NCBI GenBank assembly: GCA_026708035.1
Contig: JAPOVQ010000001.1
Coordinates: 151,970 to 215,969 of the forward strand
Origin: Chloroflexota bacterium
GTDB taxonomy: Bacteria; Chloroflexota; UBA11872
Length of the DNA: 64,000 nucleotides
Direction of reading: 5' to 3'
Shown here one piece after another: positions 7,107 to 57,139 of this stretch; within the stretch, counting starts at the first letter, position 1; each line of letters opens with the position of its first letter. The notes under the pieces are model-generated. The model was not told where the DNA came from, did no database searches, and was given only the letters and a program-made list of their open reading frames with translations. The position numbers and the translations under genes were made by a program.

Positions 7107-7670
7107 TCATTCGTTCTGCTCGGCCTCGTCCGTTTCCGCCGGCGGCGCGTGCAGCGTCACCGGCTGCGCCATGAAGTCAACGCTCGCCAGCAGCACACGG
7201 CGACCGTCGGGCAGGCGCAGGCGAACCGACCGGGGACCGACCTCTTCCACAAACCCGCGAAAGCCGCGGATCTCGATCTCGGCTCCGACGCCAATCCGCC
7301 GCTTCGCCGAAACAATGACGCCCGAAATCAGATTCCGCGCGATGTCCTGGGTGCCGAAGGCGATGCCGACCGACAGTCCGCCGATGATCGCCAGCAGCAC
7401 GTTGAGGTTGAAGCCGACGGACGTGAGGGCGACGTAGATTCCAACCAGCACCACCAGCCAGGTCGTAAGGCGTACGATCCACGCCGAGGCCCGTTCGTCG
7501 GTGTTCAGCCGCTCGCTCAAGGACCGGCGCAGGAGCCGCCGCAACGGCAGCAGCGCAATGATGGTGATCGCGAGGATGATTACGATCTGGATGACGCCGA
7601 GCGGCGTCAGGATCTTGCCGTCGATTTCCGTGATCGGTGCGTTGAGCACGTCCAAGGTTTGCTGCCACAT
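7107..7670 (-). CDS. mechanosensitive ion channel, MscS family (small)
   Basis: MscS pore-helix/beta-domain signature region …LLAIIGGLSVGIAFGTQDIARNLISGVIV… A start at internal Met MWQQTL (codon 7668..7670) fits the TM topology; the longer ORF to 7871 overlaps the lnt start region. Confidence 0.6.
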   Translation of the reverse strand: MWQQTLDVLNAPITEIDGKILTPLGVIQIVIILAITIIALLPLRRLLRRSLSERLNTDERASAWIVRLTTWLVVLVGIYVALTSVGFNLNVLLAIIGGLSVGIAFGTQDIARNLISGVIVSAKRRIGVGAEIEIRGFRGFVEEVGPRSVRLRLPDGRRVLLASVDFMAQPVTLHAPPAETDEAEQNE

Positions 7671-7718
7671 GTCCACGAGCGACTTCCCCCACGCTCGGCG
7701 TTCCGGTAACCGAGTCGA

Positions 7719-9982: not shown

Positions 9983-10113
9983 GGGGCTAGCTAGCGAAGG
10001 CGGGCGAGCGCCGGGTGCTTGGTACCATGGCGGCGATTGGCGGGTGCGGCGGCTGAGGGGTTGTCGTGCCCGCGCGATTGTTTACAACGCAAGCGAACGG
10101 GTGCGCCTTTCGC

Positions 10114-10197
10114 GGGTCGGTGGGTGAGCGGCTAATACCACCGGACTGTAAATCCGGCGCCTTTACGGCTACGTAGGTTCGAATCCTACCCGGCCCA
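10114..10197 (+). tRNA. tRNA-Tyr (anticodon GTA), class II with long variable arm
   Basis: Acceptor GGGTCGG/CCGGCCC; anticodon stem CCGGA/TCCGG with loop CTGTAAA; T-arm GTAGGTTCGAATCCTAC. CCA is not encoded directly. Confidence 0.7.
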
Positions 10198-10246
10198 CCG
10201 CCACCGTGGCGTCGGATACCATGGTGGGCGGCGCGCCCGCAACGCT

Positions 10247-10323
10247 GGTCCCGTGGTGCAGTGGCCTAGCATATCTCCCTGTCAAGGAGAAGATCGCCGG
10301 TTCGAATCCGGTCGGGACCGCCA
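10247..10323 (+). tRNA. tRNA-Asp (anticodon GTC)
   Basis: Acceptor GGTCCCG/CGGGACC; anticodon stem TCTCC/GGAGA with loop CTGTCAA; T-loop GGTTCGAATCC; encoded CCA. Confidence 0.85.
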
Positions 10324-10348
10324 GACACGCCTGTTGCGGGCCTGCCAT

Positions 10349-10421
10349 GGGCCCATAGCTCAGCGGTCAGAGCAGCCGGCTCATAACCGGCCAGTCCCTG
10401 GTTCGAATCCAGGTGGGCCCA
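10349..10421 (+). tRNA. tRNA-Met (anticodon CAT), elongator type
   Basis: Acceptor GGGCCCA/TGGGCCC with a 1:72 pair; D-arm GCTCAGCGGTCAGAGC; anticodon stem GCCGG/CCGGC with loop CTCATAA. Lacks initiator features. Confidence 0.8.
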
Positions 10422-10526
10422 CCGGACTTGACGATAGAGCGAACCGAGCCTGATTCAACGATTGTCCAGAACGTCTGGTGGGGACTCCTCCAGGTTCCTG
10501 CCATCGAGAAACGCGAGCTGAAGAGC

Positions 10527-11468
10527 ATGACGCAGGTTCGGCCGGGGAGACGGCTTCAAATCTTGGGCGTAGTCCTCGCGCTGGCCCTTCCCGCAGTCTT
10601 CATGGCCTGCGGCCCAGATACCGCGACACCGACGGAAGCGCCAGCAGCCTTTGGCGAGGCCACGGTCGATCGGACGGGCTGGCCGGCGAAGGTCCGGCTG
10701 GGTCTGATTCCCACCGAAGCCAACGTCATCGCCGACTGGACCCCGGTGGTGGAACATCTGGAGGCTCGGCTTGAATTGGAGGTGGAAGTATTCGTAGGCG
10801 CCGACTACACCGCCACCATCACGGCCGCCAGGAACGGCGACGTCGACATCGTGCAGCTGGGCCCTACGTCCTACGTCAAGGCCCGCGAACAGGGTGCCGA
10901 TATCGAGCCGGTGGTCAGGTGGATTAACGAGGACAGCGGGATCGCTGGCTATAACAGCCTGCTCATCACCCACAAAAACAGCGGCATCACGACCATCGAA
11001 AACGCGCGGGGCCGTACGTTTGCCTTCAACGATCCCGAGTCCACGTCGGGTTTCCTGGTTCCCACGGTGTTTTTTCTGGAACGGAACATCGACCCCGAGT
11101 CCTATTTCAGCGACGTGTCATTCGCGGGTTCCCACGAAGCTACGGCTCTGGCCGTGGTCAACGGCACCGTTGACCTGGCCTCCAACAACAACGAGACCCT
11201 GCCGCGACTCTTTGAGACAGGCAAACTAAACGAGGACGACCTACGGATCATCTGGACGTCCGCACTGATTCCCACCGACCCCATTTCGGTGCAGAACAGC
11301 CTGCCCGCGAGCTTCCACACTGCGGTCAAAGAAGCCTTCCTGAGTTTCGACGACCCGGCGGCTCTCGGCGTGCTGCGGATTCAAGGCTGGATCCCTACCG
11401 AGGACGGAGACTACGACGTCGTCCGTACGCTCGAGGCCACCAGGGCGCAATTGGCCAGCGTCAACTAG
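10527..11468 (+). CDS. phosphonate/phosphite ABC transporter substrate-binding lipoprotein (PhnD family), orphan SBP
   Basis: Start moved to Met39 of ORF 10413..11468 because the ORF's 5' end overlaps tRNA-Met. Lipoprotein signal LALALPAVFMAC; PhnD-like core (GLIPTEAN…TAARNGDVDIVQLGPTSYV…ASNNNE). No permease or ATPase gene adjacent. Confidence 0.65.
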   Translation: MTQVRPGRRLQILGVVLALALPAVFMACGPDTATPTEAPAAFGEATVDRTGWPAKVRLGLIPTEANVIADWTPVVEHLEARLELEVEVFVGADYTATITAARNGDVDIVQLGPTSYVKAREQGADIEPVVRWINEDSGIAGYNSLLITHKNSGITTIENARGRTFAFNDPESTSGFLVPTVFFLERNIDPESYFSDVSFAGSHEATALAVVNGTVDLASNNNETLPRLFETGKLNEDDLRIIWTSALIPTDPISVQNSLPASFHTAVKEAFLSFDDPAALGVLRIQGWIPTEDGDYDVVRTLEATRAQLASVN

Positions 11469-11572
11469 CAGCCGGGAGAGATGTGACGATACTCGGTCGG
11501 TTCCCCGGTGCCGGTGCGCAGCCAAGTGGACGTTCCAGGTGACCAGTCAGATGACATGTCGATATCGGAGGA

Positions 11573-11791
11573 ATGACAGTGCGAGAGATCGAGGCCGAGA
11601 AGTTCAAGGAGCAGTGGCTGGCGTTGCTGGATGAGATGGACGCCGAGGGACTGATCGTCACCAGGCGCGGCAAGCCGGTGGCGCGCGTGCTTCCCTACGA
11701 GGGCGACGACGCGGATCTGATTGGCAGCCTGCGGCACAAGATCGAGGTGCGGGGCGACTTGATGACGACCGGGAGCTGGCGCAAGTACTGA
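11573..11791 (+). CDS. Phd/YefM-family type II antitoxin-like protein (orphan)
   Basis: 72 aa; the core …GLIVTRRGKPVARVLPYE… matches the Phd/YefM antitoxin fold signature. No toxin ORF downstream. Confidence 0.5.
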   Translation: MTVREIEAEKFKEQWLALLDEMDAEGLIVTRRGKPVARVLPYEGDDADLIGSLRHKIEVRGDLMTTGSWRKY

Positions 11792-11843
11792 GGCGTCGGC
11801 GCGTGTCGCCGAACGGTCTGGCCTGGAATGCAAGGCACCGACT

Positions 11844-11891
11844 CCCATCCGTTCGGCAATCCCTTCGACAAGCTCAGGGCGAACGGATGGG
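11844..11891. other. perfect 12-bp inverted repeat (CCCATCCGTTCG … CGAACGGATGGG) with 24-nt loop
   Basis: Seen directly in the sequence, in the gene-free stretch downstream of the antitoxin-like gene. Confidence 0.6.
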
Positions 11892-12046
11892 ATTAAGTCC
11901 CGGGGCCTGTTTCAGAGCCATCCGAGTTCTTGGCTGCTTATGAGGATTCTGCCAGTGGTTGCGAAACAATCGGCACGATTGGCATCGCGAATAAGCGGTA
12001 GCGTGGGAAGACTCCGACGAACGGACGCTCCGGCGTAGGGCGGAGA

Positions 12047-13504
12047 ATGCAAGTGGGCCGCCAGACAATCCTCGTCACCGGCGCGACGGGGTATATCGGC
12101 GGGCGGTTGGTGCCGCGGCTGGTCGGGTCGGGTCGTCGGGTTCGGGTGCTAGTCCGCAGCCGGTCGCCGGTGGCCGCCCGTGCCTGGCAGTCGCAGGTCG
12201 AGGTGGCGGTGGGCGATGTGCTGGACGCGCAGGCGTTGTCGGAGGCGCTGGCGGGGGTCGACACGGCCTACTACCTGGTTCACAGCATGTCGAGCGGCGC
12301 CGATTTCCACGAGCGGGACATGCAGGCCGCTCGCGCGTTCGGCAGGGCCGCGAAGGCCGCGGGCGTCAACCGGATCATCTACCTGGGGGGTCTGGGAGAT
12401 CCGGCGTCGAAGCTTTCCCGCCATTTGCGATCCCGGCAATCCACGGGCCAGGCGCTGCGAGAGAGTGGCGTGCCGGTCACCGAGTTCCGGGCGGCCGTGA
12501 TCGTCGGCGCGGGCAGCATCTCCTTCGAGATGATTCGCTACCTGGTCGAGCGGCTGCCGGTGATGATCTGCCCGAAGTGGATCTATTCGCACATCCAGCC
12601 CATCGCCGTCGACGATCTCCTGGTGTACCTGGTGTCGGCCCTCGATGCGCCGGAAAGCCAAGGGCAGATCGTCGAGATCGGCGGGAAGGACGTGGTCACC
12701 TACCGGGGCATGATGCTGGGCTATGCCCGGGCGCGGGGGCTCAGACGGCTATTGGTGCCGGTACCGGTGCTGACGCCGCGCCTGTCCGCCTATTGGGTGC
12801 ATTGGATCACCCCGATTCATGCGGGAATCAGCTCGGCGCTGATCGAGGGCCTGCACAACGACGTGGTGGTGACCAACGATTCGGCCCGAGAGCTCTTTCC
12901 AGACGTGGATCCGATGGACTATTCCGGAGCGATTGCCCGCGTGGTCGACGATCTCGACGCGGGGCGGATCGACACGTCGTGGAGCGACGCCCTGGGCGCG
13001 CCGGCGTGGCGCGAGCAACCCGTGGGGCTGGAGTCGCGTCACGGGATGATCATCGAGCGCCGCCGCATGCGGGTGTCGGCGCCGGCGCAAGAGGTGTACC
13101 GGGTGTTCACCGGCATCGGCGGCGGACGCGGCTGGTATTTCGCCACCTGGACCTGGCGGCTGCGTGGAGCGTTGGACCGCATGCTGGGCGGCGTCGGTCT
13201 ACGCCGGGGGCGGCGCCATCCCGACCACCTGCGCATCGGCGACGCGCTGGACTTCTGGCGGGTCGAGGACCTGCAGGCCGATCGCTCGGTTCGCCTGCGC
13301 GCGGAGATGAAGCTCCCGGGCCGAGCCTGGCTCCAGTTCGAGGCGCGTGAAGCCGGGGACGGCACGTCTCACCTGGAGCAAACGGCGGCGTTCATTCCCA
13401 AGGGCCTGCCGGGATTGGCGTACTGGTATGGCTTGTATCCGCTTCATCGCTGGATCTTCGGCGGGCTGATCAGGGCAATCGCCCGCCGCGCCGAGCGGGT
13501 GTGA
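12047..13504 (+). CDS. NAD(P)H-binding (NmrA/SDR-like) protein with C-terminal DUF2867-like domain
   Basis: Rossmann motif ILVTGATGYIGGRLV at the N-terminus; 485 aa two-domain architecture. Confidence 0.65.
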   Translation: MQVGRQTILVTGATGYIGGRLVPRLVGSGRRVRVLVRSRSPVAARAWQSQVEVAVGDVLDAQALSEALAGVDTAYYLVHSMSSGADFHERDMQAARAFGRAAKAAGVNRIIYLGGLGDPASKLSRHLRSRQSTGQALRESGVPVTEFRAAVIVGAGSISFEMIRYLVERLPVMICPKWIYSHIQPIAVDDLLVYLVSALDAPESQGQIVEIGGKDVVTYRGMMLGYARARGLRRLLVPVPVLTPRLSAYWVHWITPIHAGISSALIEGLHNDVVVTNDSARELFPDVDPMDYSGAIARVVDDLDAGRIDTSWSDALGAPAWREQPVGLESRHGMIIERRRMRVSAPAQEVYRVFTGIGGGRGWYFATWTWRLRGALDRMLGGVGLRRGRRHPDHLRIGDALDFWRVEDLQADRSVRLRAEMKLPGRAWLQFEAREAGDGTSHLEQTAAFIPKGLPGLAYWYGLYPLHRWIFGGLIRAIARRAERV

Positions 13505-15803: not shown

Positions 15804-17672
15804 ATGAGCCTGGATCCGGCCGCATCTCTCTGGCCCGGGGTGATCGCGTCCGTGGCGGTCTGCCTGTGGATTGCGGCCATCGGCGCGCTCTTCGCCTACG
15901 CCGTCTTTCGGGATCGGCCGCGACTGGTCTGGCCGTTCTACGCGCCGTTCGTGGGCGTGGCGGTGGTGCTACTGGTCACCAATCTTGCGGCGTACGTGAT
16001 CCCGGGCGCGCCCTCGGCCTGGTTTGGGCTGATTGCGACGTCAGCGCTGGGGATCGTCGCCGCTCGGCGCAGCGGCGCGCTGCGTCTTCCGCCCGAAGGG
16101 TCCCGGACCGCGCTGCTGGCCATGGCGGCGATGGCCGTCGGCGTATTTGCTCTCGCCTACGCGACTCGAACGCACGAGTACCCATTCGATGGCGAATGGC
16201 ACTACGCGCTGATCTTCCGCTTGGCTCGCGGGGAGTTTCCGCCCGTGACGCCCTACGGAGTCGACGCGGGGATCGGGTATCACTACGGCGCTGACCTGCT
16301 CGCGGCCAGCATCATCAACGTGGCCCGGGTTTTTCCGTGGACGGCTTTCGACGCCCTCGCGGCCTTCCTCGTCGGCGCACTCGTCCTCGCCGTCGCCGGC
16401 TTCGCCTACGACACAGGCGCGCCGCTTCCCCTGGCGCTTGGGATCGGCGTCACCGTGGGGTTGTTTTATGGACGGATATTCGGGTATTTCGATGGCGGCG
16501 TGTTCCTCGGATATCGCACCGGATACCTCGAGGACCTCGCCATCTTCGGGTCGCAGCCGACCCCTAGGCCAGCGTTCTTGTGGATGAAAATGTTGCAACG
16601 GCCACTGGCCGTCGGCTGCGTCGTCCTCGTCGCCGCCGCCTTCACGCGGGCACGGCACGCGCTGCTGCTGGCCGCGGCAGCCGGGGTCTTGGCCCTGGGC
16701 GACACCTCGGTGACGATCTTCGGCTGCGCGGCGCTGGCGCTGGTGGGCGTCATTCGCCTGGTCCGGCTGCGAGGAAGTGAGCGGCTCACGCTGGCCGGGG
16801 CGCTCGTCGCGAGCGCGTTGCTCGTCGTGCTGGCCGGCGGTCCCATTTCCGATGAAATCTTCGACCGCGGCGGCACCGCCGGACTCGTACGCGTGGCATG
16901 GGAGCCGGACGTGGACCATTTCCTGCTCTTCCATCAAAGTGGGTCGGCGCTGGTCAGGCTCGGGGCAATCCCGCTGATCGCGGTCGGCGCCTTCGCGGCC
17001 TACCGGCGACGCAGTTGGGGTCTGGGCGTCCTGACGGCGGCTGGCGCCTTCGGGCTGCTGGAAGCCCAACTGCTGCAGTCGGTTATACCGTGGCAGGACG
17101 ACCGGATTCTCTGGCTTACCCACGCCGTGGCGATGATCGCTGCGCTTTCCGGCGTCGGGGCGCTCATCGGTGCGTTGCGGAGGCCGGTGCACCGGCGCCT
17201 GGCCGTGGTGTTTGGTTGCCCTCCTGGTTCTCGTGCCGACCGGCCTTCCTCGGGCGGCCGCTGGTGTGCAGCTGGCGCTCAAGGACCTCGAAATCGTCGA
17301 CCCGGCGGCCGACGACTCGGGGCATCACTACCGAGACCGGACCTCCTGGGGCTGGGAGATCGAAGCGAGTTGGGAGCTATACACCTGGCTCCGGGACAAT
17401 CTGCCAACCGAGGCGCGCCTCCTTACGCCAAGGCCGCACATCAGCGCATCAGCCGCCGGCGTTGCATCCCCCCTCTCCCACCGCGATCAGCAAATGTTCG
17501 TGGGCACTCACACCACGTGGGTCTACGAAGACGGGCTGCGGTTCCTGCATCGCGACGACCTCTTGGATATGGGCATCACGCACCTCCACCTGACAGACGC
17601 CACGGCCGCCAACCTCGATCCTTCCGCCAAGCGCCTGCTCGACGACCCGAGCCACTTCAGGCTGCTGACTGA
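15804..17672 (+). CDS. large polytopic membrane protein (hypothetical); C-terminal ~150 aa of this ORF probably out of frame, see 17170..18870
   Basis: About 14 hydrophobic helices through ~aa 460, then low-complexity Arg/Pro/Gly-rich junk. Overlaps the next ORF by ~500 nt in another frame. Confidence 0.45.
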   Translation: MSLDPAASLWPGVIASVAVCLWIAAIGALFAYAVFRDRPRLVWPFYAPFVGVAVVLLVTNLAAYVIPGAPSAWFGLIATSALGIVAARRSGALRLPPEGSRTALLAMAAMAVGVFALAYATRTHEYPFDGEWHYALIFRLARGEFPPVTPYGVDAGIGYHYGADLLAASIINVARVFPWTAFDALAAFLVGALVLAVAGFAYDTGAPLPLALGIGVTVGLFYGRIFGYFDGGVFLGYRTGYLEDLAIFGSQPTPRPAFLWMKMLQRPLAVGCVVLVAAAFTRARHALLLAAAAGVLALGDTSVTIFGCAALALVGVIRLVRLRGSERLTLAGALVASALLVVLAGGPISDEIFDRGGTAGLVRVAWEPDVDHFLLFHQSGSALVRLGAIPLIAVGAFAAYRRRSWGLGVLTAAGAFGLLEAQLLQSVIPWQDDRILWLTHAVAMIAALSGVGALIGALRRPVHRRLAVVFGCPPGSRADRPSSGGRWCAAGAQGPRNRRPGGRRLGASLPRPDLLGLGDRSELGAIHLAPGQSANRGAPPYAKAAHQRISRRRCIPPLPPRSANVRGHSHHVGLRRRAAVPASRRPLGYGHHAPPPDRRHGRQPRSFRQAPARRPEPLQAAD

Positions 17673-18870
17673 CGTGACCACGCCCGCAGGCCTGCGAAGC
17701 CGCGTGTATCAGGTCATGCCGGGCGCCGGTACGACCGAGGTCGATTCGGCCAGCTATCGCGCCCTGCGCCAGATTGTGCCGCGCAGCGCTCCCGTGACCA
17801 CGCTGGGATCGCCGCCTCCCTTGCACCAACTCGTCGCCATTAGCGCACTTGCCGATCACGAGATCTTGCAGTCCTCGATCGCGCTCCCGGCGGAGCGCGC
17901 CACGCTCACGCCACAAATTCAGACCATGGCCGACTTGCCGCTGCGCGGGGTGGTCGTACTCGCCGAGCCGCTCGAACCGACTGCGCTGGGCGTGTCACGC
18001 GACGAGGCGCTGTGGGCCGGGCATGGACTGCGGGCCTACGACCTCGCGACGGCGTGGTCGCCGGTCTGGCGCATCGGGTCCGACGGCGCGGGACTGCCGG
18101 GACCGCAGCAAGCCGTCTGCGAGTCGGCAGACGGCGAGGTTGATCTGTACCTGCTCGGCGAGCCTGGGTCGCGGGTGACGGCCGGTTCGGTGGAAACAGT
18201 GCTCACCGGGCTGCCGCAGGTGGTCGCGCTCGCGGTCCCGGATTGCGGCGCGCTAAGCCTGAGCGCCCGCACAAACATTCCGCCGTTTGCGCAGATTCGA
18301 CCGAGTCGCGCGGGCCCAAGCGTGGATCGCCAGGCGCCCAGCGCCGGGCTTGGCTTCGACGGCGGCGTCGACGGCGAGCGCGCGGTGCTCAACTTCTGGT
18401 TCCGCAATCCCGAGGACATTGCCTTCACGACAGGAACCGAGTTTCGCCTCTACGAAGCCAGTCCGCTCGGGGTGGACCTCCAGCCCGACAATCCGAACCC
18501 GCGGACTGCGTCGCTGCGGTGGTGGCCAGGTCCCGTGGCGCTGCGGGCGCCCGAGCAGATCGCCCGAATCGAGTTTGACGCCCGGCGCCTCGAGATCAAC
18601 GGCGATACGGGCGGCGGCGCGGCGACCAGCCTCATGCCCGAGAAAACCTACCTGCTGACGCTGAACGTGGTGGGCACGGACCCGCGCTACGGCCTGGTGG
18701 AGATCCAGCACGTCGTACCCGTGGCGCGCGTGGTGGTGGGTGAGACCGGTGTGGCCTACGAGGTGCTTTCCGGGATCGTCACCATCGAGCACCATGCGCC
18801 GGGCTCAATTTACCAGCGCACGGGCTACGACGGTGGGCTCGGCAGGGACGCAACCCTCAGGCCGCGCTAG
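17170..18870 (+). CDS. large extracytoplasmic domain protein (hypothetical); possibly the frameshifted continuation of the 15804 membrane protein
   Basis: Begins with a TM-like segment (WPWCLVALLVLVPTGLP) encoded by the same nucleotides as the tail of the upstream ORF, followed by a ~540-aa non-repetitive soluble domain. Confidence 0.45.
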   Translation: MRCGGRCTGAWPWCLVALLVLVPTGLPRAAAGVQLALKDLEIVDPAADDSGHHYRDRTSWGWEIEASWELYTWLRDNLPTEARLLTPRPHISASAAGVASPLSHRDQQMFVGTHTTWVYEDGLRFLHRDDLLDMGITHLHLTDATAANLDPSAKRLLDDPSHFRLLTDVTTPAGLRSRVYQVMPGAGTTEVDSASYRALRQIVPRSAPVTTLGSPPPLHQLVAISALADHEILQSSIALPAERATLTPQIQTMADLPLRGVVVLAEPLEPTALGVSRDEALWAGHGLRAYDLATAWSPVWRIGSDGAGLPGPQQAVCESADGEVDLYLLGEPGSRVTAGSVETVLTGLPQVVALAVPDCGALSLSARTNIPPFAQIRPSRAGPSVDRQAPSAGLGFDGGVDGERAVLNFWFRNPEDIAFTTGTEFRLYEASPLGVDLQPDNPNPRTASLRWWPGPVALRAPEQIARIEFDARRLEINGDTGGGAATSLMPEKTYLLTLNVVGTDPRYGLVEIQHVVPVARVVVGETGVAYEVLSGIVTIEHHAPGSIYQRTGYDGGLGRDATLRPR

Positions 18871-19095
18871 GCGGTGGGGGCTCCCGCCGCGGAGTCCCCG
18901 CGTCCTTACACTCTCCTCCTGGGGAAGACGAACGGGACCTCCGTCGCCCTGGATGCGGATGCCCGCGGTCTCCCGCCATCGAACCGCGTTCAGTCTCCCG
19001 GCCCCCGCGATGGTGGACGGACGTCGAGAACATTTCACGCACCGCTGCCGTGGTACCGTTCAAGCCCAGCCCCGGCGCCTTTCGTGCGGGGGCGC

Positions 19096-19167
19096 GGCGG
19101 AGTAGCTCAGAGGTAGAGCAGGGGACTCATAAGCCCTTGGCCGCAGGTTCGATTCCTGCCTCCGCTA
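19096..19167 (+). tRNA. tRNA-Met (anticodon CAT)
   Basis: Acceptor GGCGGAG/CTCCGCT; D-arm GCTCAGAGGTAGAGC; anticodon loop CTCATAA; T-arm GCAGGTTCGATTCCTGC. Confidence 0.75.
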
Positions 19168-19174
19168 CCGGCCG

Positions 19175-19258
19175 GCCGAGGTGGTGAAACTGGCAGACAC
19201 GCAGTCCTCAGGAGGCTGTGAGCAACCGCTCGTGCGGGTTCGAATCCCGCCCTCGGCA
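19175..19258 (+). tRNA. tRNA-Leu (anticodon CAG), class II
   Basis: Acceptor GCCGAGG/CCTCGGC; anticodon stem CAGTC/GGCTG with loop CTCAGGA; long variable arm; T-arm GCGGGTTCGAATCCCGC. Confidence 0.85.
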
Positions 19259-19431
19259 CCGCGATCTGCAATTCGCGCGGCGAGGCTCATCCTCGCAGCC
19301 GCTGCCCTAGCTTTTCCGAGCGATTCCGAGGGTGTGGCCCGCCCGCTTGCACATTGGCATGCGTCAATCCGAGCGTCCCGCCGTCCCCCAACCCACATCG
19401 ACATACGCCGGACCGCCAAGTTGAATTGGCC

Positions 19432-19758
19432 TCATTCAAGACCGACCACTCGATCCTCAAGCAGTCCCAGATCAACATCGAAGTAATAGTCTAGAATATA
19501 TCGGAAGTGATTGACGGGTGTAATGGAAGGATACAGACCCTCATTACCACCGTTCGGCAAGTAAAATGCGGACAAAATATAGTGCTTCACTATTCCTGGT
19601 CTATTGAGGCCATGATCAGCCGTAATGACGATAATTGGATTCTGATCGCTCGATTGTAGAATGCCATCGACCATTCGCAACACCAACGAGTTGATATAGA
19701 TCACTTGCCCAATATATGGCTCAGGAACACTCGGGTCATGATTGCGTCTGAACGCCAC
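19432..19758 (-). CDS. C-terminal continuation of the same sulfatase domain (same frame, beyond the in-frame TAG)
   Basis: Same reading frame as 19792..21690. Contains the sulfatase C-terminal motif IVITADHGLN. The 11 codons between the TAG and this ORF's first GTG read HGNFIEADTST in frame. Confidence 0.55.
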   Translation of the reverse strand: MAFRRNHDPSVPEPYIGQVIYINSLVLRMVDGILQSSDQNPIIVITADHGLNRPGIVKHYILSAFYLPNGGNEGLYPSITPVNHFRYILDYYFDVDLGLLEDRVVGLE

Positions 19759-19791
19759 AGTCGAGGTGTCAGCCTCAATGAAATTGCCGTG

Positions 19792-21690
19792 CTAATCAAA
19801 CGTCGCCGGACCGTGTGGCTTGTTGATGTGTGCAAATACAAATTTTGGACCGTCTACATCAATAGGATTTGTTAGGAACTCAAACATCTCAAGGGTGCGG
19901 AGCGATGACCAAAAGCTATAGGGGGTGGAATCGCCAAGCAAGAATCGGTTGCCAACAATCGGTTTCAGAATTGTAGTATTGATGAGCGAACCGATGAATC
20001 TGATTGAAACCACAGATTGACTTGGCGCTCCCTCTGAAGCCACGAATCCGCCCGAGCGATCAGTGGCGCGTACGCCGGCAGGTGAAAATGTGACGATGAC
20101 GTCGGCGAGCGGCGAATCGCTCGTGTAGCGGAATCCCGATTCAAGATGCACATATGTGTACCCGAGGTTCTTCAGGATCGCGCCAAGCGCATGGCTCTCG
20201 GTGAGACTGACCAAGTCGTTACCACGTTCCGGCAAGAGTCGTTTGATTTCGTCCGCATAGGACATGTTGAGAATTGAAGGTATTGACGGAACGGAGTGCC
20301 GATAGTTGCTGACGGCCTCCGATGCCACGTAGAAACCTCGACGCTCAAGTTCGCGCAGAAAGCCAGTGTTATCGAACTCCCCGAGCCCTGCATCCCGCGT
20401 GTACGAATCGAGGATGAGGTAGTAGATGTCGGGACGGTCTCCGCTCACAGTCGGCAGGCCGGATGGAAGCAAGCGGGCCGCAAGATCTTCCGCCGATTCG
20501 GACTCCGACGCCGACGGCCGTGCAATCGCCGCCGCAATGCCGCCGGCGAGGCTTGCGACCGGGAAGACAAGCAAGACGGCGGCTGTGAGATTCAGCAGTT
20601 GCGTCCCCCGAGCGGCCAACAAACCAGCCCGTATGGCCATCACGACCGCTCCCGCGGCGAGTACAACCGCACCCGCAAAGAGCGCACGTTCGTCCAGGAT
20701 TCCATCGAGCGCGCGCGCGATGTGGCCGTACGCAAAAGCGACGACCGTGACGCCGGCCGTCGCGGCAGCGGGCCGGTGCCAATCCTTGAGAAGCAGTCGC
20801 AGGCTGACGACGCCGCCGGTCACCACCGCCAAGGCAACGGCCAGCGGAAGGACGGCCTCGATTGGGGCGAAGTGCACCGGGTTGCTGGTCAGGAAATGCA
20901 GGATCGGGATCGCCGCGGCCGGCCACGGATACCAGGGCGTCGCCAGCACACGGCCGACCAACGTCGGCGTGTCGCCGGTACCCGAATCGGCGCCCGGTCC
21001 TTCGAGACGCCTCAGCCGCCTCACCGGTCGCTGGATCCCATGCCATGCGGCCATCCCCAGGCGCCGAAACGCCGCCAAGACGCGGGGATGCGAGAGAGTC
21101 ACCAGCACACTCAGTAGGACAGACAGGGCGAGTCGACTCCGCGCGGCTGGTTCACCGACAAGCGCGGCGCGCAGCCCGCTGCCGGTCTCGACATGCGCAA
21201 CGACCAACGGTCCGTCGCTGGAATCCGGGACCCCGTTCACCATCGCGTTCGCAATCCCATGCTGCGAGGCGGCCAGCCGATAGATCACGTAGTACTGCTC
21301 GGGCAACTGCACTTGAAGTTGCAACAGCAGCCGCTGGCCCTCCGGCACGGCATAGCTGGGAAAGGTGAGTGTGCGCGGGACCGGGATATAGCTTGGCGTG
21401 GCCTCGATGAACGTTTGTCGCAGCACTTCGCGGGTGGCGGCATCCACCAGCGAGGCCCGCACGGTCACGTCATCCCCGTCGGGCTCCGCTGACACCCAAA
21501 TCTGAAAGCGCCCCACGATCCCTCTCACGGGACCGAGGTCCTGCTGCACGCCCCATCCCGGCCAAGCGATCAAGACGTCGTCCGCGGGCTCGCCGCTCGA
21601 GACGGTCGTATAAGTCACCTGGGGCACGAGGCTGGCCCAGACCCCAAGCGCCGCCAGCGCAATGGCGAGCCAGAGCGACCTAGTGAGCAC
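19792..21690 (-). CDS. membrane-anchored sulfatase/LtaS-like (alkaline-phosphatase superfamily) protein, N-terminal 632 aa up to an in-frame TAG
   Basis: Signal peptide, ~190-aa extracytoplasmic domain and ~5 TM helices, then a sulfatase domain starting DIYYLILDSYTRD and ending …HINKPHGPATFD at the TAG (19792..19794). Confidence 0.6.
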   Translation of the reverse strand: MLTRSLWLAIALAALGVWASLVPQVTYTTVSSGEPADDVLIAWPGWGVQQDLGPVRGIVGRFQIWVSAEPDGDDVTVRASLVDAATREVLRQTFIEATPSYIPVPRTLTFPSYAVPEGQRLLLQLQVQLPEQYYVIYRLAASQHGIANAMVNGVPDSSDGPLVVAHVETGSGLRAALVGEPAARSRLALSVLLSVLVTLSHPRVLAAFRRLGMAAWHGIQRPVRRLRRLEGPGADSGTGDTPTLVGRVLATPWYPWPAAAIPILHFLTSNPVHFAPIEAVLPLAVALAVVTGGVVSLRLLLKDWHRPAAATAGVTVVAFAYGHIARALDGILDERALFAGAVVLAAGAVVMAIRAGLLAARGTQLLNLTAAVLLVFPVASLAGGIAAAIARPSASESESAEDLAARLLPSGLPTVSGDRPDIYYLILDSYTRDAGLGEFDNTGFLRELERRGFYVASEAVSNYRHSVPSIPSILNMSYADEIKRLLPERGNDLVSLTESHALGAILKNLGYTYVHLESGFRYTSDSPLADVIVTFSPAGVRATDRSGGFVASEGAPSQSVVSIRFIGSLINTTILKPIVGNRFLLGDSTPYSFWSSLRTLEMFEFLTNPIDVDGPKFVFAHINKPHGPATFD

Positions 21691-21858
21691 AGGTCACCCG
21701 CAACCACCGACAGGCGCGGAAGGCTCGACCCAGCGGGGCGGGCGTGACCGGAAACGAACGCGGGGCGCCGGAGATCCCCGTCTTGCGCTGGTCGTGAGTC
21801 TCGTCCACAGTATGTCGGTAGTGTCGGCCACCGAAGCCAAAGATCATAGCGGGGTGCC

Positions 21859-22146
21859 GTGGCTTTGAATGCCCGTCCATCACGACCGCCGATGGCACGT
21901 GCGCCGGTTGGCGCCCTAGCCGCCGTCTTGGTTGCCTTCCAGATCGTGCGGCTCGCCGGTCGCAGCTACATCGATCCCGGCAGCGGCAGCTTCGCGATCC
22001 AGATCATCATTGCGGCCGTGCTCGGCGGGCTCCTATCGGCACGGCTGTGGTTTCGGTACGTGTTTGGACGAATCATCGGGTGGTTTCGACGGTCGATGCC
22101 GGAGGCGAGCCCGCCGGCCGAGGAGGCCAGCCGAGAGGACGGATGA
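21859..22146 (+). CDS. small hydrophobic protein (hypothetical)
   Basis: 95-aa ORF with two hydrophobic segments (GALAAVLVAFQIV…IIIAAVLGGLL). Confidence 0.25.
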   Translation: MALNARPSRPPMARAPVGALAAVLVAFQIVRLAGRSYIDPGSGSFAIQIIIAAVLGGLLSARLWFRYVFGRIIGWFRRSMPEASPPAEEASREDG

Positions 22147-23549
22147 CCGCCGATCCTGACGCGCGCCTGCCGGGGTCGTTCCGCGATCCGGCGGGGTTCA
22201 TGTTCCGGCGCGACGGCGAGTTCCTGCGACAGGTCAACCAGTCCTACGAGTCGACGTTCCGCACCCTGATGGACTCGGGGCTGTATGCCAGCCTCGTCGA
22301 CGACGGTCTGCTCATTCCGCACGAGACCGTCGACCCGAACCTGGCGGCCGAGCCGGGCGCCGTGGCCGTCTTGCGGCCCGAGCAGCTGACGTTCGTCTCC
22401 TATCCGTTTGAGTGGTCGTTCTCGCAGCTGAAGGCCGCGGCGCTCGCCACCTTGCACGTGCAGCGCCGCGCGCTGGACCACGGCCTGTCGCTGAAGGACG
22501 CGAGCGCGCGCAACATCCAATTGCACGCGGGTCGTCCGATGCTCATCGACACCCTGTCGTTCGAGCCTTACGAGCCGGGGTATCCGTGGGTGGGCTATCG
22601 GCAGTTTTGCCAGCACTTCCTGGCTCCGCTGGCGGTCATGGCCTCCACCGACGCACGCTTGAGCGGCCTGCTGCAGAGTCACCTGGACGGCCTGCCGCTC
22701 GACCTGGCCGCGCGGCTGCTGCCCTGGCGCTCGCGGCTGCGAACCGGCCTGTTGATGCATCTCCACCTGCACAGCCGGGCGCAAGCGCGCGCGGCTTCGG
22801 CCAGCCGGAAGCGCGCCGACCTGGCCGGGCGCATGAGCCGACGACGGCTCGACGCCTTGCTGGACAGCCTGGAGTCGACGGTGCGCCGGATTTCGTGGAA
22901 CCCGGACGACACGCCCTGGGCCGGATATGGCGACCAGACGAGCTATTCCGGGCGCGCCCTGGCCGACAAGAAACGCCTGGTGGCCGAATACCTCGCCACC
23001 GTCTCGGTGGAATCGGTGTGGGACATCGGCGGCAACACGGGCGACTTCAGCCGGCTTGCCGCCGCTCGCGGCGTTTCGGTGGTGTCAATCGACAGCGACC
23101 CTGGTGCGGTGGACGTGAACTACCGGCGCATGGCCGCGGCTGGAGAAGCCAATCTCATTCCGATCGTGGCGGACATCACGAATCCCAGCCCCTCGCTTGG
23201 GTGGGACAACCGCGAGATCGCCTCGCTCACGGCGCGGGGACCGGCTGGGCTGGTGATGGCGCTGGCGCTGATTCACCACGTGGCAGTCGGCAACAACACC
23301 GGCTTCGACCGCCTGGCGCGGTTTTTCGCGGCGCTGGGGCCAAAGCTCCTGATCGAGTTCGTCCCGCCCGACGATCCCATGGCGGTTGGCCTGGTGGCGA
23401 TGCGGAACCACGACTTCCCCTGGTACACGCAGCCCGAATTCGAGTCGGCTTTCGGCCGCCACTTCGAGGTCCAGCGGTCGGATGCGATCGAGGACTCGAA
23501 ACGCCGGCTCTATCTGATGACCGCGCGCCGTGAGGGAGATTCTGAATGA
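22143..23549 (+). CDS. class I SAM-dependent methyltransferase with N-terminal domain of unknown function
   Basis: C-terminal Rossmann MTase motifs (VWDIGGNTGDFS … VVSIDSD … IVADITNP). Start taken at MTADPDARLPG. Confidence 0.6.
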   Translation: MTADPDARLPGSFRDPAGFMFRRDGEFLRQVNQSYESTFRTLMDSGLYASLVDDGLLIPHETVDPNLAAEPGAVAVLRPEQLTFVSYPFEWSFSQLKAAALATLHVQRRALDHGLSLKDASARNIQLHAGRPMLIDTLSFEPYEPGYPWVGYRQFCQHFLAPLAVMASTDARLSGLLQSHLDGLPLDLAARLLPWRSRLRTGLLMHLHLHSRAQARAASASRKRADLAGRMSRRRLDALLDSLESTVRRISWNPDDTPWAGYGDQTSYSGRALADKKRLVAEYLATVSVESVWDIGGNTGDFSRLAAARGVSVVSIDSDPGAVDVNYRRMAAAGEANLIPIVADITNPSPSLGWDNREIASLTARGPAGLVMALALIHHVAVGNNTGFDRLARFFAALGPKLLIEFVPPDDPMAVGLVAMRNHDFPWYTQPEFESAFGRHFEVQRSDAIEDSKRRLYLMTARREGDSE

Positions 23550-56233: not shown

Positions 56234-57139
56234 TCATTTCGCCCGATCCTTCTCATATCGGTCGACAATCTCGCGGTGCACGACCGCCACAAGCTTGGCT
56301 GGTGCATCCATCACGTCTTTAGGTGACAGCCAATCTCGCGATATCCTCTCAACGGTATTCTCGATCCTTACGCAAGCAAAGGGCAATGTGACGGTCGGAT
56401 CCATTCGCTCGTATTTTAGATAAATCTGGTGGTCGATTGTCCTCGGAAATGCCTGGTAGAAGTCTTGGTATAGCGAGATGCGTTCATCGGTTTTCTGTTT
56501 AACGACAAAGGCTGCGAAATCTGCCGCGCTCTGTTCCAGTGGTCGGAAATGCACCACTATTTCAGGGAAGCCAGGAACTCTCCATTCCTCAGTCTTGTTT
56601 GCTCGACCAATCCGACCCTCTCGAATCAAATTTTCCCGTATACGAACACCTCTTCTGAGCAATCTCTCCTGCAATCCTGTGAGAGTGAAGCGGAATCCCT
56701 TCTCTCTGTTACAGGACGAGCAAAGTAAAGCAAGATTGTGGAAATCGCTCGTGCCCCCATCGTCCGTCGGGCGTATATGATCGATCTCAAGCAACTCAGG
56801 ACGCTCAAGGAGATCAATGCTACACCCTTGGCAATAGGGTCCAAACTTGGCAATTAGCTCCGGGTGGTGTCGGCGCAAGCCGCGAAGATTCAGGGGCGGA
56901 TACTTAGCCAGGACCTTTTGCGGGTGCAGAGGTGGCAGCTGGCCCTGTCGGGCAATTTGGTCGCTATACATGACTTCGACATTAGGGGGCCAAGTCACAG
57001 ATTCTCGAATGAGAGCAAGGGTTTTCTGGGTCGAGGCAAGGATCCTTCGGTTTTCTTCGAGGGTGGGAGCAATGGCTCGATGAGCAGCCTCAACAGAGGC
57101 TGCGATTGCACGGAATTCGTGTGGATCAAGCAGATTCAC
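56234..57139 (-). CDS. HNH endonuclease-domain protein (301 aa) on a low-GC islet
   Basis: HNH motif CQGCSIDLLERPELLEIDHIRPTDDGGTSDFHNLALLCSSCNREKG; flanking N- and C-terminal regions of unknown function. Local GC ~48%. Confidence 0.7.
   Translation of the reverse strand: MNLLDPHEFRAIAASVEAAHRAIAPTLEENRRILASTQKTLALIRESVTWPPNVEVMYSDQIARQGQLPPLHPQKVLAKYPPLNLRGLRRHHPELIAKFGPYCQGCSIDLLERPELLEIDHIRPTDDGGTSDFHNLALLCSSCNREKGFRFTLTGLQERLLRRGVRIRENLIREGRIGRANKTEEWRVPGFPEIVVHFRPLEQSAADFAAFVVKQKTDERISLYQDFYQAFPRTIDHQIYLKYERMDPTVTLPFACVRIENTVERISRDWLSPKDVMDAPAKLVAVVHREIVDRYEKDRAK

What the first reader, a model, noticed from the sequence alone, without database searches (positions are those of the whole stretch)
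19096..21690. Mosaic membrane-anchored sulfatase gene next to tRNA-Met/tRNA-Leu: low-GC catalytic half plus in-frame amber stop
The 5' part of the gene (signal peptide, ~190-aa periplasmic domain and 5-TM region, 20400..21690) has genome-typical high GC. From the start of the alkaline-phosphatase/sulfatase domain (DIYYLILDSY…) down to ~19430, GC drops to roughly 45%, and the island ends about 170 nt from tRNA-Leu(CAG). The catalytic domain is split by a single in-frame TAG (19792..19794): …HINKPHGPATFD-*-HGNFIEADTST…ITADHGLN continues in the same frame. This suggests a horizontally acquired domain replaced next to a tRNA integration hotspot, now a nonsense-interrupted gene or a sequencing error.
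Basis: seen in the sequence. Interest (0 to 1): 0.6.

Follow-up and report, generated by a model that had tools for sequence, protein, structure and literature searches.

The report
Nonsense-broken membrane enzyme gene, family-wide AT-rich half
A Chloroflexi gene for a membrane-anchored EptA/LtaS-like enzyme has been cut short by one real amber stop codon; its low-GC catalytic half and its tRNA neighbours are old, inherited traits of the whole gene family, not signs of a recent foreign insertion.

Summary
A minus-strand gene (21690..19432) is interrupted by an in-frame TAG at 19794..19792. Its last ~1 kb is the lowest-GC kilobase of the window (0.517 against 0.672, z = -4.4). tRNA-Met and tRNA-Leu(CAG) lie 171 nt beyond its stop codon.

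- **The stop is real.** The TAG sits in 100%-identical DNA in assemblies of at least two separately deposited read sets. TAG is also this organism's commonest terminator.
- **It is lineage-specific.** The syntenic orthologue in the closest species has CGG (Arg) at that codon and is intact. So are 57 of 58 family copies in reference genomes.
- **The catalytic half was not recently acquired.** The same GC step is present in that orthologue and across the close clade of old paralogues. Four-fold-site GC steps from 0.70 to 0.57 exactly at the domain boundary.
- **There is no phylogeny break.** Both halves have the same nearest relatives. Synonymous divergence of the low-GC half matches the neighbouring genes.
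- **There is no island signature.** No att repeat was found, and the low GC stops at the stop codon.
- **The tRNA neighbour is ancestral.** 21 of 47 close copies have a convergent tRNA-Leu(CAG) next to them.

The protein is not a formylglycine sulfatase. It has a Ser/Thr nucleophile and an EptA/MCR-1/PbgA-like predicted fold. Why the GC step persists is unexplained.

The parts
19432..21690 (-). Whole disrupted gene: 752 codons plus terminal TGA, with one internal TAG. It encodes a member of a Chloroflexota-specific family of membrane-anchored alkaline-phosphatase-superfamily enzymes.
   Evidence: The orthologue in L007 (5001-7253) is intact and 86% identical.
19795..21690 (-). The 632-codon ORF actually terminated by the TAG. 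It is annotated in NCBI as hypothetical protein MCY4112453.1 (OXG33_00755).
19792..19794 (-). In-frame amber codon (codon 633). The column is R in 29, Q in 10 and K in 8 of the 47 other family copies. L007 has CGG here.
19435..19791 (-). 119 codons cut off by the TAG, still in frame. They include the invariant Asp692 and His693 (ITADHG, 19617..19612), so the truncated product lacks part of the predicted metal site.
   Evidence: dN/dS against L007 is 0.09 over these codons.
19432..20430 (-). Low-GC coding stretch, the alkaline-phosphatase-fold catalytic domain from D421 (DIYYLILDSY) to the stop codon. The nucleophile position Ser466 is at 20295..20293.
20431..21690 (-). Genome-typical GC part. 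It encodes the signal anchor, a ~180-residue N-terminal extracytoplasmic domain, a multi-helix membrane module (about residues 180-400) and a linker.
   Evidence: Helices were predicted in the homologue model. The N-terminal domain is conserved in the family.
19261..19431 (.). GC-typical (about 0.67) spacer between the gene's stop codon and tRNA-Leu. The low-GC tract does not reach the tRNA.
19175..19260 (+). tRNA-Leu(CAG), convergent with the gene. This is the conserved neighbour of the family.
19096..19169 (+). tRNA-Met(CAT), the second-to-last member of the Tyr-Asp-Met-Met-Leu tRNA operon.
10114..10423 (+). tRNA-Tyr, tRNA-Asp and tRNA-Met. This is the other half of the same operon, separated from Met-Leu by 8.7 kb in this lineage.

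Best explanation
The gene is a vertically inherited member of a multi-copy, Chloroflexota-specific family.

**What the protein is (inferred).** It has an N-terminal extracytoplasmic domain, a multi-helix membrane module, and a C-terminal alkaline-phosphatase-fold domain with a Ser/Thr nucleophile. The architecture is that of EptA/MCR-1/LtaS/PbgA. It is most likely a phospho-group transferase or hydrolase acting on a cell-envelope lipid or glycopolymer, not a sulfatase.

**What happened to it.** In this lineage codon 633 became TAG. The ancestral residue was Arg, Gln or Lys, and two base changes separate TAG from the sister species' CGG. TAG is the organism's main terminator, so translation should stop there (inferred). 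The product would be a 632-residue protein lacking the last 119 residues, including the invariant Asp-His pair. The catalytic domain is therefore predicted to be inactive, making this a young pseudogene or truncated allele (inferred).

**Why it is young.** The cut-off codons show no relaxation of constraint relative to the sister species.

**The GC step and the tRNAs.** The low GC of the catalytic half is not a trace of recent transfer. It is a step at the domain boundary, visible at four-fold degenerate sites, and shared by the orthologue and by paralogues about 50% identical. Some local cause must maintain it; that cause is unknown. Adjacency to tRNA-Leu(CAG)/tRNA-Met is ancestral synteny. 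The family sits at the 3' end of a Tyr-Asp-Met-Met-Leu tRNA operon, and in relatives it has been duplicated together with parts of that operon.
For: **The TAG is real and fixed in sampled assemblies.**
- Five contigs carry the identical 632-residue product. L003, L004 and L005 are 100% identical to the window over 3.8-6 kb.
- No intact allele appears among homologues of the N-half. The product's cluster has one member.

**TAG is a normal stop.**
- 18 of 30 coding-like ORFs end in TAG.
- In-frame continuations after TAG are ordinary next genes with their own ATG.

**The stop is lineage-specific.**
- L007 is syntenic at 81-87% nucleotide identity over 11 kb. It has CGG at the site and an intact 750-residue ORF.
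- 57 of 58 non-redundant full-length copies are intact.
- The column is R/Q/K in all 47 other copies.

**The mutation is young.** dN/dS after the TAG is 0.09, against 0.15 before it.

**The GC step is family-wide.**
- GC3 averages 0.69 in the N part and 0.59 in the C part over 58 copies, with drops up to 0.26.
- GC4 steps from 0.70 to 0.57 at residues 400-440 and is flat afterwards, with no strand skew.
- L007's GC profile mirrors the window's.

**No mosaic origin.**
- The window's nearest relatives are the same for both halves, and N/C identities correlate with r = 0.77.
- Pairs that look discordant are explained by a fast-evolving membrane/loop region.
- dS of the C-half (0.49) lies inside the neighbour range of 0.33-0.81.

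**No island signature.** No att-like repeat was found, and the tRNA-proximal spacer is GC-typical.

**Synteny.** 21 of 47 close copies have a convergent tRNA-Leu(CAG) 67-523 nt after the stop.

**Fold and motifs.**
- The AlphaFold model of homologue P0142 has mean pLDDT 79, and above 90 over most of the C domain.
- Its best matches are EptA 5fgn, MCR-1 9nww, EptC 6a82 and PbgA 6xlp, with type I sulfatases also listed.
- The nucleophile column is T in 28 and S in 20 copies. The Arg of C-x-P-x-R is absent in 48 of 48. D428, H621 and D692 are invariant.
Against: - No reads were available, so a minority intact allele or a systematic consensus error cannot be formally excluded.
- Whether the truncated protein is made, is stable, or keeps a function through its N-terminal modules is untested.
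- The cause of the persistent GC step is unknown. Polarised substitution counts were too few to show compositional equilibrium.
- The N-half has lower dS (0.22) than all seven neighbouring genes. This is unexplained and could reflect a later exchange of the N-half between lineages, although the nucleotide identity profile shows no sharp block.
- The biochemical role is inferred from fold and motifs at 11-15% identity to solved structures. No sequence-level match to PDB was found.
Confidence: 0.8

Rival explanations
1. The catalytic domain was recently acquired horizontally and swapped into a resident gene at a tRNA-Leu integration site. The low GC is un-ameliorated foreign DNA.
For: The composition break is real and strong. 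The gene abuts tRNA genes. In relatives the tRNA operon is clearly a site of duplication and rearrangement for this family.
Against: - The same GC step is present in the syntenic orthologue of the nearest species and across the close clade, including tRNA-free loci.
- There is no phylogenetic discordance between the halves for this gene.
- dS of the C-half is typical of neighbouring genes.
- The low-GC tract ends at the stop codon, 171 nt short of the tRNA.
- No att repeat was found, and no integrase-like ORF is adjacent.
Confidence: 0.04
2. The TAG is a sequencing or assembly error, and the organism makes the full 752-residue enzyme.
For: There is a single substitution-type interruption with a perfectly preserved downstream frame and strong purifying-selection signal after it (dN/dS 0.09). 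Many truncated homologues on 3-6x long-read contigs do look error-ridden.
Against: Sequence is identical, including the TAG, in independently built assemblies of two differently deposited read sets plus the ENA and NCBI MAG contigs. A base-substitution error is unlikely to recur in every consensus.
Confidence: 0.06
3. The TAG is decoded (pyrrolysine, suppressor tRNA or programmed read-through), so the gene is functional.
For: The downstream frame is intact and conserved. TAG is followed by C, and no other lesion is present.
Against: TAG terminates 18 of 30 confidently coding ORFs in the window, and those junctions are normal gene ends. Homologues have ordinary R/Q/K at the site. No tRNA with a CUA anticodon was found in the window. 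Only 1 of 58 other copies has an internal stop, and that one is a TGA elsewhere in the gene.
Confidence: 0.02
4. The truncation is tolerated or even useful. The N-terminal ecto-domain and membrane module keep a function on their own, as the membrane domain of PbgA/YejM does, so this is a remodelled allele rather than a dead gene.
For: The N-half is well conserved against L007 (dN/dS 0.33, dS 0.22). The full-length predicted fold resembles PbgA, among others. That PbgA's periplasmic domain is dispensable is taken from my own knowledge of the E. coli literature; it was not checked here.
Against: No evidence that any intact family member works without its catalytic domain. 57 of 58 reference copies keep it. 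The truncation point lies inside the folded domain, which usually destabilises a protein.
Confidence: 0.1

Closest known systems
EptA / MCR-1 / EptC phosphoethanolamine transferases (PDB 5fgn, 9nww, 6a82)
   Same: N-terminal multi-helix membrane module followed by an extracytoplasmic alkaline-phosphatase-fold domain. These are the best full-length Foldseek matches. The nucleophile column is Thr/Ser, and the Asp, His and Asp-His columns are conserved.
   Different: Only 11-15% identity. No Pfam or NCBIfam match to EptA families and no PDB match by sequence or profile. There is an extra ~180-residue N-terminal ecto-domain. The host phylum is different and the substrate is unknown.
LtaS / PbgA (YejM) membrane-anchored AlkP-superfamily proteins (PDB 6xlp, 6v8q)
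   Same: Same domain order. PbgA is among the top full-length structural matches.
   Different: PbgA is regarded as non-catalytic, whereas this family keeps nucleophile and metal-ligand columns. No sequence-level relationship was detected.
Formylglycine (type I) sulfatases, Pfam PF00884
   Same: Same fold. There is a weak Pfam hit (23.7 bits), and many homologues carry a precomputed PF00884 hit. The motif is in register: [T/S]-x-x-S-x(4)-L-N.
   Different: The Arg of C/S-x-P-x-R is absent in 48 of 48 copies, and Pro is present in only 2 of 48. The window protein scores below Pfam's cut-off. The membrane-anchored architecture is also untypical of sulfatases.
tRNA-targeting genomic islands
   Same: Low-GC DNA beside tRNA genes.
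   Different: No integrase and no att repeat. The low-GC tract is confined to part of one ORF and is separated from the tRNA. It is conserved in orthologues and paralogues.
Low-GC surface-polysaccharide and envelope-modification loci in otherwise GC-rich genomes (O-antigen or capsule clusters; own knowledge, not tested here)
   Same: An envelope-directed enzyme gene with persistently lower GC than its genome.
   Different: Here the low GC covers only one domain of one gene, with a step at the domain boundary. It is kept in paralogues that diverged long ago.

Membership tests
Formylglycine-dependent sulfatase (PF00884 / type I) | Score above Pfam's gathering threshold | tested here: inconclusive
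   The window protein scores 23.7 bits against a cut-off of 25. Many homologues carry precomputed PF00884 hits.
Formylglycine-dependent sulfatase (PF00884 / type I) | C/S-x-P-x-R signature for formylglycine generation | tested here: not met
   The window has S466-V-P-S-I. The Arg column is L/I/T/M in 48 of 48 copies, and the nucleophile column is T in 28 and S in 20.
Alkaline-phosphatase superfamily | AlkP alpha/beta fold with conserved metal-ligand residues | tested here: met
   The model of homologue P0142 (C domain pLDDT mostly above 90) has 159 PDB matches with E <= 0.001. All 50 listed are AlkP-superfamily members. D428, H621 and D692 are invariant.
EptA/MCR/LtaS/PbgA-type membrane-anchored AlkP enzymes | N-terminal multi-helix membrane module followed by an extracytoplasmic catalytic domain | tested here: met
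   Seven to eight helices are predicted before the catalytic domain. There are full-length Foldseek alignments to 5fgn, 9nww_B and 6xlp_A.
EptA/MCR/LtaS/PbgA-type membrane-anchored AlkP enzymes | Thr (or Ser) nucleophile | tested here: met
   The column is T in 28 and S in 20 copies; the window has Ser466. Assignment is by motif register, not by structural superposition.
EptA/MCR/LtaS/PbgA-type membrane-anchored AlkP enzymes | Sequence-level membership (family HMMs or PDB homologues) | tested here: not met
   No Pfam family other than the weak Sulfatase hit, no NCBIfam hit, and no PDB hit by phmmer or profile.
EptA/MCR/LtaS/PbgA-type membrane-anchored AlkP enzymes | Demonstrated transferase activity and substrate | not testable with these tools
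   Needs biochemistry.
tRNA-targeting integrative island | Direct repeat of the tRNA 3' end at the distal boundary | tested here: not met
   The only repeats touching the tRNAs in 18800-22300 are short imperfect matches of 12-17 nt (D5, D14). None copies a tRNA 3' end or bounds the low-GC tract.
tRNA-targeting integrative island | Integrase or recombinase gene inside the island | tested here: not met
   The low-GC tract lies wholly inside one ORF. The neighbouring ORFs are a hypothetical protein, a small membrane protein and a methyltransferase-like protein.
tRNA-targeting integrative island | Sporadic presence among close relatives | tested here: not met
   The orthologue in L007 has an identical GC profile. 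The step is shared across the close clade.
Amber-codon recoding | TAG rare or absent as a terminator, with in-frame TAG in many genes | tested here: not met
   TAG ends 18 of 30 coding-like ORFs, and the junctions are ordinary gene ends.

The most novel reading that the evidence does not exclude
The GC step at the domain boundary is actively maintained. Candidate causes are selection on the catalytic-domain coding sequence, or a separate, less GC-biased recombination regime for it. In addition, the family spreads and diversifies as integrase-free cassettes bracketed by duplicated pieces of the Tyr-Asp-Met-Met-Leu tRNA operon. Those 209-300-nt direct repeats are 93-99% identical. Highly conserved tRNA genes would then serve as portable homology arms for duplication, loss and perhaps inter-species exchange of an envelope-modifying enzyme. 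The window's TAG allele would be one step in the turnover of such cassettes.
Probability: 0.15. Interest if true: 0.55.

Novelty: new member of a known kind. Interest (0 to 1): 0.27.

Why it matters
For annotation, three corrections follow:
- The gene should be marked as disrupted, not as a 632-residue hypothetical protein.
- It should not be called a sulfatase.
- The low-GC tract should not be flagged as a genomic island.

More generally, this is a clean example of how a strong intragenic composition break next to tRNA genes can mimic horizontal transfer while being an old, inherited property of a gene family.

Two side observations would be worth a specialist's look. One is a synonymous-site GC step held at a domain boundary across saturated paralogues. 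The other is co-duplication of the gene with parts of a tRNA operon. Neither is surprising enough to change current views.

Tried and rejected
- **att site.** A repeat search over 18800-22300 found only short chance-level matches.
- **Domain swap.** N- and C-half identity matrices over 48 copies showed the same nearest relatives for both halves. Pairs with C much higher than N (for example L010/L014, 0.61 against 0.81) looked like recombinants. Sliding identity showed instead that both ecto-domains are conserved and only the membrane/loop region (residues 180-400) is fast.
- **Recent recombination block between the window and L007.** Nucleotide identity is uniform at 0.84-0.95 across the gene and flanks.
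- **tRNA read-through or transcription-driven mutation as the cause of low GC.** The family profile is a step, not a gradient towards the tRNA. There is no A/T or G/C asymmetry at four-fold sites. Copies without a nearby tRNA also show the drop.
- **Recurrent disruption as a family trait.** This was suggested by the many truncated homologues. It was rejected because 57 of 58 copies in species-representative genomes are intact, and the truncated ones come largely from 3-6x contigs with frameshifts.
- **TAG recoding.** Rejected by stop-codon usage.
- **Polarised S->W and W->S counts with outgroups.** Too few informative sites.
- **Alternative alleles in JGI metagenomes.** An exact pattern with NNN at the codon gave no match.
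- **PDB sequence and profile searches.** Nothing found.
- **Provenance.** A literature search for the run and sample accessions returned nothing. A search for the bin names returned four papers, none informative about provenance.
- **Promoter-like hits inside the low-GC tract.** These are what AT-rich DNA gives and were not pursued.
Full report
**What is in the sequence**

On the minus strand an ORF starts at GTG 21690 and ends at TAG 19794..19792 after 632 codons. The same frame then runs a further 119 codons to TGA 19434..19432. The two parts together make a 752-residue protein with no frameshift.

GC is 0.64-0.72 over the 5' 1.3 kb. It falls to 0.52-0.58 over 20000-20400 and to 0.44-0.48 over 19400-20000. 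The window 19501-20500 is the lowest-GC kilobase of the 64-kb window (0.517; mean 0.672, sd 0.036, z = -4.4).

The drop is also seen at synonymous positions. GC3 is about 0.80 for codons 1-400 and 0.46-0.50 for codons 575-750. Four-fold-site GC falls from 0.77-0.93 to 0.43-0.71.

tRNA-Met(CAT) at 19096-19169 and tRNA-Leu(CAG) at 19175-19260 lie on the plus strand, convergent with the gene.

**Is the TAG real?**

The exact 632-residue product is NCBI MCY4112453.1, 'MAG: hypothetical protein OXG33_00755 [Chloroflexi bacterium]'. Five contigs carry it. They include an ENA scaffold of 336 kb and Logan assemblies of two differently deposited runs, SRR10996905 and ERR5005005. All three loci I could read are 100% identical to the window over 3.8-6 kb, TAG included.

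No intact allele appears among the homologues of the N-half; the next best is 68% identical. A consensus substitution error repeated in independent assemblies is unlikely. Without reads I cannot exclude a minority allele.

**Is TAG a stop here?**

I took 30 stop-to-stop ORFs of at least 150 codons with a clear coding signature. Of these, 18 end in TAG, 11 in TGA and 1 in TAA. Where a coding-like frame continues after a TAG, it is simply the next gene with its own ATG. One example is '...RQFH* L MRVPYEWL...'. TAG is therefore the main terminator, and recoding is not supported.

**What did the codon replace?**

A scan of species-representative genomes returned 78 loci, nearly all labelled Chloroflexota. 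The nearest is L007 (CBDAOU010000001.1). It is syntenic with the window at 81-87% nucleotide identity over 11 kb. Its orthologue is intact and 86% identical, and it reads CGG (Arg) where the window has TAG.

In 48 aligned close-family copies the column is R in 29, Q in 10 and K in 8. The window is the only stop.

Of 58 non-redundant full-length copies, 57 have no internal stop. The single exception is a TGA in the linker of a copy in OZ253587.1. The many short homologues seen in the protein search come largely from 3-6x long-read contigs with frameshifts, so I do not read them as biology.

Against L007, dN/dS is 0.15 for the catalytic domain before the TAG and 0.09 after it. The nonsense change is therefore recent relative to the species split.

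**Is the low-GC half foreign?**

Six results say no.

1. L007 has the same GC profile position by position. Nucleotide identity to the window is uniform at 0.84-0.95 across the gene and its flanks, with no block structure.
2. dS between the window and L007 is 0.49 for the low-GC half. That is inside the range of seven neighbouring genes (0.33-0.81). The half has therefore co-diverged with the genome.
3. The step is a property of the family.
   - In 58 copies mean GC3 is 0.69 in the N part and 0.59 in the C part, with drops up to 0.26.
   - It is present in copies with no tRNA within 5 kb.
   - It is absent only in a distant clade at 34-38% identity.
4. Averaged over 48 copies, four-fold-site GC is 0.66-0.76 up to residue 400. 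It steps to 0.55-0.58 from residue 440 and stays flat, with no A/T or G/C asymmetry.
5. There is no phylogeny break.
   - Pairwise identities of the two halves correlate (r = 0.77).
   - The window's best relatives are the same for both halves (L007, L009, L041).
   - Pairs that looked discordant are explained by a fast-evolving membrane/loop segment between two conserved ecto-domains.
6. There are no island signatures.
   - The low-GC tract ends at the stop codon.
   - It is followed by a 171-nt GC-typical spacer before tRNA-Leu.
   - No repeat of a tRNA 3' end is found.

Tandem paralogues are only 45-60% identical, so synonymous sites are saturated. A composition inherited from an ancient donor should have decayed by now. 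Something local must keep the step in place. I could not identify it. Polarised substitution counts were too few to test equilibrium.

**The tRNA neighbourhood**

In 21 of 47 close copies a convergent tRNA-Leu(CAG) lies 67-523 nt after the stop codon. It is usually the last gene of a Tyr-Asp-Met-Met-Leu operon. Adjacency is therefore ancestral synteny, not evidence of integration.

The operon is nevertheless a rearrangement site. In L028, L011, L008 and L033, family genes are bracketed by 209-300-nt direct repeats. These repeats are 93-99% identical and consist of duplicated Leu-Met(-Met) sets, spaced 2.8-3.6 kb apart.

In the window and in L007 the operon is split. Tyr-Asp-Met sits at 10114-10423 and Met-Leu at 19096-19260, with 8.7 kb of ordinary genes between them.

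**What the protein is**

- Pfam gives only a sub-threshold Sulfatase hit.
- NCBIfam and PDB sequence or profile searches give nothing.
- An AlphaFold model of the intact homologue P0142, built with 69 aligned sequences, has mean pLDDT 79. The catalytic domain is mostly above 90.
- Its best PDB matches are full-length EptA (5fgn), MCR-1 (9nww), EptC and PbgA (6xlp), followed by type I sulfatases, at 11-15% identity.
- In register with the sulfatase signature, the family has [T/S]-x-x-S-x(4)-L-N. The nucleophile column is T in 28 and S in 20 copies, and the Arg needed for formylglycine formation is never present.
- D428, H621, P625 and D692 are invariant.

I infer an EptA/LtaS-like phospho-group transferase or hydrolase acting on the envelope. 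It has an extra N-terminal ecto-domain. It is not a sulfatase.

The TAG removes D692-H693 and about a third of the fold, so the catalytic domain should be dead. Whether the N-terminal modules retain a role is open.

**Verdict**

This is a young nonsense allele, or pseudogene, of an uncharacterised Chloroflexota family. The 'nonsense-interrupted' reading is right. 'Sequencing error' is unlikely. 'Recently acquired domain at a tRNA integration site' is not supported.

Two things remain of modest interest: the unexplained, long-lived GC step at a domain boundary, and the co-duplication of the gene with pieces of a tRNA operon.

Noticed in passing
window 10114-10423 and 19096-19260: The Tyr-Asp-Met-Met-Leu tRNA operon is contiguous in most relatives. 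Here it is split between the two tRNA-Met genes by 8.7 kb of GC-typical genes: a PhnD-like binding protein, an SDR-like protein, a permease and membrane proteins. The sister species L007 shares the split.
   Followed up: partly
L028 4543-4842 / 7388-7687; L011 1256-1515 / 4688-4947; L008 9121-9378 / 12409-12666; L033 4145, 7335, 10897: In relatives, single family genes are bracketed by 209-300-nt direct repeats made of duplicated tRNA-Leu/Met(/Met) sets. The pairs in L028, L011 and L008 are 93-99% identical; in L033 the three copies are 79-100% identical. The genes between them are only about 50-60% identical to each other.
   Followed up: partly
whole window: TAG is the commonest stop codon (18 TAG, 11 TGA, 1 TAA among 30 coding-like ORFs). 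This is unusual for a 67% GC genome, where TGA normally dominates.
   Followed up: partly
window 56234-57139 (-): This is the second low-GC islet of the window (GC 0.48-0.56, z = -4.1). It holds a 301-residue ORF with an HNH nuclease motif and a weak NCBIfam match to the HNH region of IscB (37 bits, cut-off 175).
   Followed up: partly
L006 5800-5900: On a 3x-coverage contig, the third tandem family copy ends at ...FAHILKP and is fused directly to the 3' end of tRNA-Leu(CAG) at a GGT microhomology. About 560 nt present in the window are missing. This is either a real deletion or an assembly artefact.
   Followed up: partly
L001 7165-7167 (= L008 copy at 10055-12217): This is the only other family copy with an internal stop: a single in-frame TGA in the linker between the membrane module and the catalytic domain. 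The gene is called as two ORFs of 388 and 342 residues.
   Followed up: yes
window 20431-21690 vs L007: Synonymous divergence of the GC-rich N-half (dS 0.22) is lower than in all seven neighbouring genes (0.33-0.81), while the low-GC half is typical (0.49). This is unexplained, and no sharp identity block is visible.
   Followed up: partly
window 15804-17672 (+) and 17170-18870 (+): Two long ORFs overlap out of frame by about 500 nt. The tail of the first looks non-protein-like, so this may be a frameshift or a mis-set boundary in a large membrane protein gene.
   Followed up: no
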